Assembly (NCBI GenBank): GCA_001949185.1 | Contig: BDGG01000002.1 | Span: 1,385,145 to 1,449,144, forward strand | Source: Ramazzottius varieornatus | Lineage: Eukaryota; Animalia; Tardigrada | Reading direction: 5' to 3' | Length of the DNA stretch: 64,000 nucleotides | In this document: in pieces, positions 54,901 to 57,177 of the stretch | How the letters are laid out: each line of letters starts with the position of its first letter | How positions within the stretch are numbered: position 1 is the stretch's first letter | Translations under genes and position numbers: made by a program | Notes under the pieces: model-generated | What the model was told of the DNA's origin: nothing | Seen by the model: the letters and a program-made list of their open reading frames with translations, nothing else | The model's database searches: none

Positions 54901-57177
54901 GTGAACAGTTACCCAGAAAAGAATTTAAAATTACTGTACAGTAATCTGCCGGAAAATTTGACCGGAAGTTAACTTTGATACTTTTAATGGTGCGCTTTTG
55001 TTGTGAAGGTTTTCAGTGGGTGGAATGACGGACGTAGCAGAAATCAAAGGCCACAGGAGAACTTACGTCGGCGCCATGCCGGGTAAAGTCATTCAGTGCT
55101 TGAAGAAGACCAAGTTCGAGAATCCCTTGATCCTCATCGATGAAGTGGACAAGATTGGCAAAGGCTACCAAGGCGACCCGGCTGCCGCTCTCCTCGAACT
55201 GCTGGACCCTGAACAGAACAAGAATTTTCTCGACCATTACCTCGACGTTCCTGTCGACCTTTCGCATGTGAGATCCCGCCCTTGAAGAACTTCCCAGAAT
55301 ATTGTTTCGACGTCGACAAGTGATTTGAAGATCATTATATTTCAAGTGGCGCATACCTCAAGCCAAAAGCCACGAGTACGTGCGCCGCTTGAGCCGATGA
55401 TTGTGGTCATTTCATTTGCAGGCGTCTCGTCAAGTGGAAAATATTTCAGAAAATAATGTCGTGTCGAAGATATCTTTACTCGAAATTTTTAGGTGCTTTT
55501 CATCTGTACAGCTAACGTTCTGGACACGATACCGGACCCCTTGCGCGATCGCATGGAGATGATCGAGGTAGCAGGCTACGTTAAGGAGGAAAAGCTCGCT
55601 ATCGCTCAGCAGTACCTGATTCCACAAGCTCGCGAAAGCAGTGGTATCAAAGATCCTCAGATGGAGATTCAAGAAGGCGCTCTGAGGAAACTCATCAACC
55701 AGTATGCGAGAGAGAGCGGTGTTCGAACTCTCCAAAAGTACATTGAAAAGGTGCGAACAAACTCGCGTCCATCTTTGTTGCGGTTACAGAATGAGGCTTT
55801 GCTTTCTTGTAGATCACACGGAAAGTGGCCTACCGGATCGTCGAAGATAAAGTTGAACGGGTGGAAGTAGGGCCAGACACTTTGGAGGAGTTTGTGGGCA
55901 AGCCAAAGTTTACCAGTGAAAGACTGTACAGCGGCGAAACACCCCCTGGTGTCGTCATGGGCTTAGCATGGACTTCGATGGGTAAACACCAACCTTCGTC
56001 TGTGGCTGTTTCTCAGTTACACACCTGCATACACGGATGTCCTGCTGTCCATACGGTCGAGTGTATACAGGTTCTTGAAGTCGTTCGCCTACTGTGGTCT
56101 GATCTGAATCATCGACCTGCATACAAAGACCCAGTAGAAGTGGATGACTTTTTGTATGCAGGATGTTGAGGTGGTTCTACATCCATAGGCCGGGTGGCTG
56201 GTTTGGAATCACAGATCTGCGTACAGGAGACCTAGCACAACTGAGCGTCCGATGTGTATGCAGGTTGGTGAGAGAGTTCGTTGATCATTCATGTGATGGA
56301 TCAATGATATCATGCATCTGTTTACATGGATGCAATTTGTCTGGCCGACTATGTGTATGCAGGTTCTTGCGCCGAGTCGTCTAGCGTCTGGTGGACGACT
56401 GAACGTGTTAATATCGGATATTGTGGGCTTTTTACAGGTGGTGCTTCCTTGTTCGTCGAGACTATCCTGCGGCGTCCTTTGGAACTGGATTCGAAGAGTG
56501 AAGGTTCCATCGAGATAACGGGTCACTTGGGCGACGTCATGAAGGAGTCGTGCCGTATCTCCTACACGGTGTCCAAGAATCTCCTGATGAAGTACCAGAA
56601 AGACAACCATTTCCTAGACAAGGCCCACATGCACATTCACGTCCCGGAAGGTGCCACGCCCAAAGACGGACCTTCAGCAGGTGTCACCATCGTCAGCGCG
56701 TTGCTATCGCTGGCACTCAACCATGCTATCCCTAACAACGTGGCCATGACTGGCGAGGTCTCGCTAACTGGGAAGGTGATGCCGGTGGGTGGCATCAAGG
56801 AGAAAACCATCGCCGTAAGTCAAGGAAACGAAGAAAATGGCAAACAGAGTCGGCGTGATCTTTCCAAATGGCGCACATTTCCAGCCAATAGGACTAACAA
56901 CGTGCGCCAATTGATAAAAGATCCTGCCGAGTTTGTTTTCCGAGCTCCTAGATTTGAAATCTCTCTATATCTAAACGATGGTTTGTTGCAGGCGAAGAGA
57001 GCAGGTGTGAAGACACTGATATTACCGGAGCAGAACCGGAAGGACTTTTCAGATTTGCCTGATTTTATCCGGCAAGATATTGATGTGCATTTTGTTGACC
57101 ACTATACTCAATTATTTAGCATTATTTTTCCCGAACTCGATAGCCGGCCCGCGAGTACGGCTTCACAAGCAAGCTGA
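51941..57177 (+). CDS. LONP1: Mitochondrial Lon protease
   Basis: Transit-like N-terminus, [17 protein letters not shown], Walker [31 protein letters not shown], catalytic PKDGPSAG and GGIKEK. Confidence 0.97.
54500..54610. repeat. GTGGCGCAC-N25 element (Lon intron)
   Basis: TCAAGTGGCGCAC-25-GTGCGTCAATTGA. Confidence 0.8.
55300..55410. repeat. GTGGCGCAC-N25 element (Lon intron)
   Basis: TCAAGTGGCGCAT-25-GTGCGCCGCTTGA. Confidence 0.8.
56020..56370. repeat. Array of 4 CCTGCATACA-N27-29-TGTATGCAGG palindromic units (Lon intron)
   Basis: Left boxes at 56024, 56116, 56216, 56317; right boxes at 56062, 56153, 56255, 56354. Confidence 0.85.
56835..56950. repeat. GTGGCGCAC-N25 element (last Lon intron)
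   Basis: CAAATGGCGCAC-25-GTGCGCCAATTG; right end GTTTTCCGAGCTCCTA. Confidence 0.85.

What the first reader, a model, noticed from the sequence alone, without database searches (positions are those of the whole stretch)
56020..56370. Second, sequence-unrelated palindrome-spacer array in a Lon intron
Seen: four units of (C/T)CTGCATACA-N-TGTATGCAGG with spacers of 28, 27, 29 and 27 bp and a period of 92-101 bp; spacers and linkers are mutually dissimilar. The architecture matches the GTGGCGCAC family but the boxes differ, suggesting a class of such elements rather than one repeat (inference). Each right box also contains YAG|G, so four decoy 3' splice acceptors precede the real one at about 56438.
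Basis: partly seen in the sequence, partly recalled or inferred. Interest (0 to 1): 0.72.

Follow-up and report, generated by a model that had tools for sequence, protein, structure and literature searches.

The report
Tardigrade mirror-site family with scrambled middles
Four copies of a 62-base mirror-image DNA motif fill an intron of a tardigrade's Lon protease gene; the same motif recurs at an estimated two thousand places in the genome with nearly unchanged ends and scrambled middles, so it is likely the relic of an old jumping element whose ends are likely kept as paired docking sites for a DNA-binding protein.

Summary
The array is real: four inverted-repeat units (spacers 28/27/29/27, period 92-101) fill the 456-nt intron of Ramazzottius varieornatus mitochondrial Lon. 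It is one site of a dispersed family: 185 near-exact copies genome-wide (control 0), roughly 2,000 by profile extrapolation, non-coding, often in doublets. The half-site is longer than reported: TTTCA-N3-ACCTGCATACA. Partner arms are 84-95% conserved without selecting for them; spacers are near random. Neighbouring units descend from old tandem duplications, so the arms stayed constant while spacers drifted. No covariation, G-U excess or Rfam hit supports an RNA hairpin. No joint into the box AGs was seen in four contig sets; one minor joint uses a box as a 5' donor. The sister GTGGCGCAC family is the core of a published Sola MITE; this family is in that library only as uncurated 'Unknown' consensuses. 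It lacks target-site duplications and outer arms; its core resembles a Sola1-like terminal repeat (p about 0.03). Best reading: an ancient MITE relic whose arms are under selection as double-stranded DNA protein sites. The protein is unidentified.

The parts
55982..56437 (+). 456-nt GT..AG intron of mitochondrial Lon protease (RvY_03905) that holds the array
   Evidence: joint in 4 of 4 contig sets; Pfam Lon_C and Lon_lid; 100% match to the named protein
56017..56078 (.). Unit 1: half-site core 56023-56033, 28-bp spacer 56034-56061, right core 56062-56072 (one mismatch)
56109..56169 (.). Unit 2: TCA-N3-core 56115-56125, 27-bp spacer 56126-56152, right core 56153-56163, then N3-TGA
56209..56271 (.). 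Unit 3: core 56215-56225, 29-bp spacer 56226-56254, right core 56255-56265; a variant at 56222 inside the left box in two runs
56310..56370 (.). Unit 4: degenerate left core 56316-56326, 27-bp spacer 56327-56353, right core 56354-56364
56264..56265 (+). Cryptic 5' splice donor (GT) in the unit-3 right box, joined at low level to the true acceptor
   Evidence: joint skipping 174 nt, depth 11.7 against 195.6, run X4 only (1 of 4)
55342..55392 (.). Sister-family dyad (GTGGCGCAC core of Sola MITE ramVar1-7) in an upstream Lon intron; comparator, not part of the array
56865..56913 (.). Sister-family dyad in the last Lon intron; comparator

Best explanation
The four units are tandem copies of a dispersed 62-bp dyad (TCA-N3-ACCTGCATACA, 27-28 free bases, then its mirror image) that is likely the relic core of a very old non-autonomous DNA transposon, and its arms are likely held constant by selection because a dimeric protein would bind both half-sites on double-stranded DNA at a fixed distance. 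Shown: the family, its non-coding placement, fixed spacing, conserved arms against near-random spacers, a tandem-duplication signal between neighbours, and no hairpin covariation in the core. Inferred: constraint acting after insertion and duplication; transposon origin (by analogy to the sister Sola MITE and a partial match to a Sola1-like terminal repeat); a protein reader, perhaps transposase-derived. Not found: the protein and what it does at the sites.
For: 185 sites, control 0; 362 exact TCA-N3-ACCTGCATACA half-sites, control 1; 24 profile dyads in 544 kb, 0 in 9 shuffles (4 of the 24 are this array). Spacer 27 or 28 in 93 of 109 anchors; of 77 strong left halves in contiguous DNA, 41 have a partner at 26-29 and 38 of these at 27-28. 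Anchoring on one arm only, 38 of 42 have a partner, conserved 84-95% at core positions 2-11 against 32-45% in the spacer. Neighbouring spacers are more alike in direct (0.383) than inverted orientation (0.319; random 0.318), n=58, p 5e-4; simulation puts this at about 0.6 substitutions per site, at which a neutral core would be about 59% intact, against 86% seen in neighbour units. Of 22,791 spacer pairs (214 dyads) only 4 exceed 70% identity, all carried inside copies of one transposon, so recent copying does not explain intact arms. 0 of 120 dyads centre in predicted coding sequence. The sister family is a published Sola MITE with the same pattern at a younger age: core 84-94%, outer arm and inner part 36-84%. 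A Sola1-like family here has the terminal repeat GGGTATCTGCATACG, facing inward, scoring in the top 1.1e-4 of positions on the half-site profile. Weak within-locus mirror symmetry in the outer half-site (319 against 295+-11.5) fits birth as a perfect inverted repeat.
Against: No target-site duplication at any offset tested and no outer arms (where the sister family shows them clearly), so transposon origin is indirect. The terminal-repeat match covers 9 of 11 core bases, does not explain TTTCA, has p about 0.03 over some 240 windows looked at (my estimate), and 0 intermediates were found. No intact, stand-alone Sola-like gene was recognised among 15 and 27 own-genome hits, of which I inspected 15 extended loci and 7 further loci. 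Neighbour units were found with the profile, which inflates their arm identity. One of three intronic strain variants lies in a box (too few to test). No cross-species conservation could be tested; the motif was not seen in the readable first 400 bases of Hypsibius consensuses. No binding data exist.
Confidence: 0.5

Rival explanations
1. Dead MITE relic with no present function: arms look conserved only because many already-diverged master copies, selected for transposase binding, spread late and have since decayed neutrally.
For: The sister family is a real MITE with ANNT-like flanks and outer arms; dyads ride passively inside hAT and Sola-like elements, with degenerate arms in the latter; a strain variant hits a box; non-coding placement is what any insertion would show.
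Against: A late burst at about 10% divergence predicts sister spacers above 70% identity (P 0.9 per sister pair); none among 22,791 pairs outside transposon passengers. Tandem neighbours have drifted to 0.383 yet keep their arms. No TSD.
Confidence: 0.2
2. Host binding sites with no transposon ancestry: a lineage-specific dimeric factor reads the dyad, and sites arose by mutation, selection and local duplication.
For: No TSD, no outer arms, no asymmetric internal consensus beyond a faint signal (17.4 bits against 16.4-16.8 null); bipartite TCA-N3-core profile looks like a protein footprint; linker lengths peak at 26-29, the same as the spacer.
Against: Two 11-17-bp sites at an exact distance rarely arise by point mutation at about 2,000 places (inference); the sister family of identical build is a MITE core; the core resembles a resident terminal repeat; not among 39 promoter motifs of PMC11609603.
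Confidence: 0.15
3. An RNA element: intronic hairpins that yield small RNAs or steer splicing (decoy acceptors, recursive splice points, masked donors).
For: The intron folds at z -4.5; the right arm reads CAG|GT and is used as a donor in 1 of 4 runs; most dyads lie between same-strand coding segments (93 of 105 classifiable); G-U outnumbers A-C 152 to 106 on the sense strand.
Against: The G-U excess is reproduced by shuffling partners (155 to 110); no covariation in core or inner positions; arms equally conserved on both sides; no 5'-U bias at spacer start; no Rfam hit in the window; no joint into box AGs listed.
Confidence: 0.1
4. A still-replicating selfish element of the REPIN type, copied at a low rate by a resident nuclease or transposase that needs only the arms.
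For: Same look as bacterial REPINs (recalled): inverted doublet, fixed distance, free spacer, tandem arrays; young Sola1-like copies 95-97% alike exist.
Against: No near-identical free copies among 214, no shared flanks, no TSD. An HUH-type partner was not searched for.
Confidence: 0.05

Closest known systems
ramVar3-55.raw and ramVar4-421.raw (#Unknown) in the repeat library of PMC11071193
   Same: Both are doublets of this very dyad, with 28-base spacers in the consensus: the family is already catalogued by machine.
   Different: Uncurated and unclassified; found only in the sequence sheet, not in the curation table. The passages read do not describe its anatomy, copy number or constraint.
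ramVar1-7, 123-bp Sola MITE (56-bp TIR, 4-bp TSD; PMC11071193)
   Same: Same genome, palindromic, intronic, doublets, conserved inner dyad at fixed spacing with core conservation near 90%.
   Different: Unrelated box sequence; it keeps 40-bp outer arms, termini and a readable inner consensus; about five times more copies (109 against 25 in 544 kb).
Sola1-like DUF7869 transposons of this genome and their 553-bp derivative ramVar1-792
   Same: Terminal repeat begins GGGTATCTGCATACG, sharing A(C/T)CTGCATAC(A/G) in the same inward orientation.
   Different: The dyad lacks the GGG terminus and ANNT duplication and carries TTTCA where the target site would lie; no intermediate found.
SETMAR/Metnase sites on Hsmar1 MITEs and solo TIRs in primates
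   Same: Thousands of short transposon-derived inverted repeats serving as sites for a domesticated transposase (PMC2847698 passages).
   Different: There the protein and parent transposon are known; here neither is, and the sites keep a strict 27-28-bp dyad with a randomised middle.
Bacterial REPINs/BIMEs (recalled, not read here)
   Same: Inverted doublet at a fixed distance, variable spacer, tandem arrays in non-coding DNA.
   Different: Bacterial, hairpin-based and tied to a RAYT HUH transposase; here animal, no hairpin covariation, no sign of recent copying.

Membership tests
Sola1-derived MITE | Short, non-coding, high copy number, uniform size | tested here: met
   62 bp; 185 near-exact sites, about 2,000 extrapolated; spacer 27-28 in 93 of 109
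Sola1-derived MITE | Terminal inverted repeats with defined ends | tested here: inconclusive
   Inverted arms are present, but conservation fades at position -9 to -11 with no sharp G-led terminus
Sola1-derived MITE | 4-bp AWWT-type target-site duplication (hallmark per PMC3845634) | tested here: not met
   No direct repeat of 2-9 bp at offsets 0-19 in 109 elements; age could have erased it
Sola1-derived MITE | Sequence homogeneity among copies | tested here: not met
   Mean spacer score 0.36; 4 of 22,791 pairs above 0.7, all transposon passengers
Sola1-derived MITE | Autonomous partner sharing the terminal repeat | tested here: inconclusive
   9 of 11 core bases match one resident family's repeat; no intermediates
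Domesticated-transposase binding sites (SETMAR type) | Intact host gene derived from the transposase | tested here: inconclusive
   Inspected DUF7869-type loci look like transposon copies or fragments; searches list best candidates only
Domesticated-transposase binding sites (SETMAR type) | Protein binds the site in vitro or in vivo | not testable with these tools
   No binding assay or chromatin data available
Structured intronic RNA (miRNA, snoRNA, other hairpin RNA) | Compensatory changes and sense-strand G-U excess | tested here: not met
   only a weak outer-arm symmetry (p 0.009) in one of three sets
Structured intronic RNA (miRNA, snoRNA, other hairpin RNA) | Match to a known RNA family | tested here: not met
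   0 Rfam matches at gathering score in the window
Structured intronic RNA (miRNA, snoRNA, other hairpin RNA) | Discrete small-RNA products | not testable with these tools
   Only contigs were served
Decoy or recursive 3' splice sites | Upstream exon joined to the internal AG | tested here: not met
   0 such joints listed in 4 contig sets; one donor-type joint in 1 of 4; contigs drop rare forms
REPIN | Linked HUH (RAYT) transposase and ongoing replication | not tested
   No HUH search made; ongoing replication disfavoured
CRISPR-like array | Spacers copied from mobile elements | tested here: inconclusive
   The intron matched only itself in the genome at E<=1 (a loose first look); spacers were not searched elsewhere

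The most novel reading that the evidence does not exclude
Ramazzottius has turned two extinct mini-transposons into a genome-wide grid of about 2,000 plus about 11,000 fixed-geometry dyads, one every few kilobases in introns and intergenic DNA, read by transposase-derived dimers that span 27-28 free bases and stack on tandem units every 36-37 bases to organise chromatin in this compact, damage-tolerant genome.
Probability: 0.2. Interest if true: 0.78.

Novelty: new variant of a known kind. Interest (0 to 1): 0.52.

Why it matters
Almost nothing is known about cis-acting DNA in tardigrades. A long, strictly spaced site kept at roughly 2,000 loci is a ready bait to pull out its protein in a species with working reporter vectors. 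If the constraint holds, it is a clear case of transposon relics changing into selected host sites, with two families of different age in one genome showing the same end state. If it fails, the family is still an unclassified repeat that is now described, and the Lon array is an ordinary local expansion of it.

Tried and rejected
Lone decayed tandem repeat: rejected (Tandem Repeats Finder does not report it). Known RNA family: none. Target-site duplication and outer arms: none. G-U excess: explained by intron strand skew. Pairs about 580 bp apart: 12 of 23 distant pairs at 559-627 in the first set, flanking ordinary host exons with no shared inner sequence; in 40 loci re-read to 3 kb only 3 of 39 distances above 200 fell at 565-658, and a genome-wide count at that distance could not be run, so not established. 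Mutual exclusion of elements within 500 bp: 2 of 92 gaps, matched by a null with one element per non-coding segment. Ten-base phasing of linkers: Rayleigh z 8.9 overall but driven by the main peak; z about 5 beyond it, and absent in the sister family; weak. Metagenome scan: 5 hits, one an adapter chimera, one a long fold-back, three long palindromes of another organism sharing the 11-mer; chance cannot be excluded. Fused terminal repeats as intermediates: 0. Domesticated transposase: none recognised. Sequencing runs: no RNA holder listed on record; the four runs laid are guessed RNA and held as contigs. Phage search with Lon was uninformative. Earlier findings of this scan: nothing in 4 look-ups. 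Literature searches that found no description of this dyad.

Full report
Setting. The window is G000:C2:1385145-1449144 of a 55.8-Mb genome. The exon after the array matches RvY_03905, mitochondrial Lon of Ramazzottius varieornatus, at 100% (Pfam Lon_C). The intron is 55982-56437 and is spliced out in 4 of 4 contig sets (these runs are guessed to be RNA).

Observation. A profile scan finds exactly these 4 dyads in the window, against 2 single hits in 30 shuffles.

It is a dispersed family. The pattern CTGYRTACA-N22-34-TGTAYRCAG has 185 sites, control 0. I fetched 109 of them, chosen from the listed first places, with the second batch biased to spacers starting with C. The half-site is TTTCA-N3-ACCTGCATACA with a weak pyrimidine seven bases inside; 93 of 109 spacers are 27 or 28 long. 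A profile finds 24 dyads in 544 kb of contiguous DNA and none in 9 shuffles. Leaving out the four of this array gives about 37 per Mb, or roughly 2,000 genome-wide; this is an extrapolation from 1% of the genome. With a home-made coding model that under-calls exons, 0 of 120 dyads centre in coding sequence and 93 of 105 classifiable ones lie between same-strand coding segments; splice donors are enriched 20-80 bases outside. 43 of 98 loci have a second dyad within 200 bases, mostly at a period of 62-112, so the Lon array is the longest of many small arrays (1 quadruplet, 4 triplets, 47 doublets, 104 singles).

The arms are constrained. Anchoring on one arm only in 767 kb not selected for dyads, 38 of 42 anchors have a partner at 26-29 bases, conserved 84-95% at core positions 2-11, while spacer positions sit at 32-45%. 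Neighbouring spacers are more alike in direct than in inverted orientation (0.383 against 0.319; random 0.318; n 58; p 5e-4), the mark of old tandem duplication. Simulation equates 0.383 with about 0.6 substitutions per site per copy, at which a neutral core would be about 59% intact; neighbour units show 86%, though they were found by profile and so are biased upward. A late burst from many masters would leave sister spacers above 70% identity; among 214 dyads (22,791 pairs) only 4 pairs do, all inside copies of one transposon. The simplest reading is selection on the arms after the copies were in place. This is inference from one genome, not a cross-species measurement.

DNA site rather than RNA hairpin. 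Left and right arms do not covary within loci in the core or spacer; a weak symmetry appears in the outer half-site in one set (p 0.009). The sense-strand excess of G-U over A-C (152 to 106) is reproduced by partner shuffling (155 to 110). Arms are equally conserved on the 5' and 3' side. Rfam has no match. The bipartite profile and fixed spacing fit a dimer bound to double-stranded DNA (inference). Linkers between units peak at 26-29 bases, so doublets often place half-sites every 36-37 bases.

Splicing. No joint into the four box AGs is listed. One minor joint, in 1 of 4 runs, uses the GT after the unit-3 box as a donor (depth 11.7 against 195.6). A transcript keeping the 5' part of the intron would meet an in-frame stop at 56167-56169. 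The right arm, CAG|GTGCGT in the profile, looks more like a donor than an acceptor. I read this as leak, not function.

Origin. In the genome it keeps 40-bp outer arms, some full-length copies have ANNT flanks, and its core is better kept (84-94%) than the rest (36-84%). The family studied here is in the same library as two uncurated Unknown doublets and as a passenger in hAT MITE consensuses. It has no TSD and no outer arms. A search for DUF7869, which I recalled as typical of Sola transposases, gave 15 loci. Five young copies are 5.0-5.6 kb with about 30-bp terminal repeats and 4-bp duplications; 27 of 30 ends are flanked by ANNT, close to the AWWT hallmark of Sola1 given in PMC3845634. Their repeat, GGGTATCTGCATACG in the older variant, shares 9 of 11 core bases with the half-site and faces the same way (profile score 8.96 bits, top 1.1e-4). 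Over about 240 terminal windows looked at this is p near 0.03 by my estimate; it does not account for TTTCA, and no intermediate exists. No intact stand-alone gene of this kind was recognised. So a Sola-related origin is a lead, and the family should not be filed as a Sola MITE.

What I saw of papers. PMC11071193: passages, section 6, and searches of its spreadsheet, whose cells are cut at 400 characters, so longer consensuses may hold further matches. PMC11609603: parts 1-2 of 5 and a search of its supplement; its 39 promoter motifs include AGTGGCGCAC but no GCATAC motif. PMC3845634 and PMC2847698: passages only. REPINs are recalled. Searches that found no description of this dyad; subscription journals and Repbase are not covered.

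Verdict. Real and family-wide; catalogued by machine but, in what I could search, undescribed. It works like a set of transposon-derived protein docking dyads (confidence 0.5); it fails the TSD and homogeneity tests for MITE membership. New variant of a known kind, interest 0.52.

Noticed in passing
window 11080-14682, minus strand: Overlapping frames with reverse transcriptase and tyrosine-recombinase domains: a DIRS-type retrotransposon.
   Followed up: no
window, 29 places between 19140 and 62477: GTGGCGCAC dyads, the core of Sola MITE ramVar1-7, about one per 2 kb here; 109 in 544 kb, roughly 11,000 genome-wide by extrapolation.
   Followed up: yes
L215-L219, e.g. G000:C1:5096191-5101586: Young (95-97% alike) 5.0-5.6-kb DUF7869 transposons with 4-bp ANNT duplications, Sola1-like. 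The 553-bp derivative ramVar1-792 is listed in PMC11071193 as plain DNA transposon with a 2-bp TSD; the loci suggest 4 bp.
   Followed up: partly
L200, L201, L208 (also L224, L226): An older DUF7869 family carries a degenerate doublet of this dyad and a decayed sister-family copy inside it, so the dyads predate that family's spread.
   Followed up: partly
L016, L019, L020, L028, L036, L038, L044, L046, L101, L106, L127, L133: Dyad pairs 559-627 bases apart around host exons; strong in the first set, weak on re-test. Non-autonomous Sola1-like elements here are 551-574 long, which may be coincidence.
   Followed up: partly
L152-L191: None of 46 sister-family dyads lies within 455 bases of an anchor dyad, where about 7 would be expected if uniform; gene structure may explain it.
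   Followed up: partly
L087, L088, L091 (metagenome contigs): Long perfect palindromes of another organism whose centre holds ACCTGCATACA, 26-27 bases, and its mirror, with different outer arms; may be chance.
   Followed up: partly
window 55935, 55950, 56049, 56176, 56222: Letter differences in runs X5 and X10, likely another strain; three lie in the intron, one of them in a box.
   Followed up: no
L199:1277-1520: A double-length sister-family element that looks like one MITE subfamily nested in the arm of another; most other doublets have linkers made of truncated arms.
   Followed up: partly
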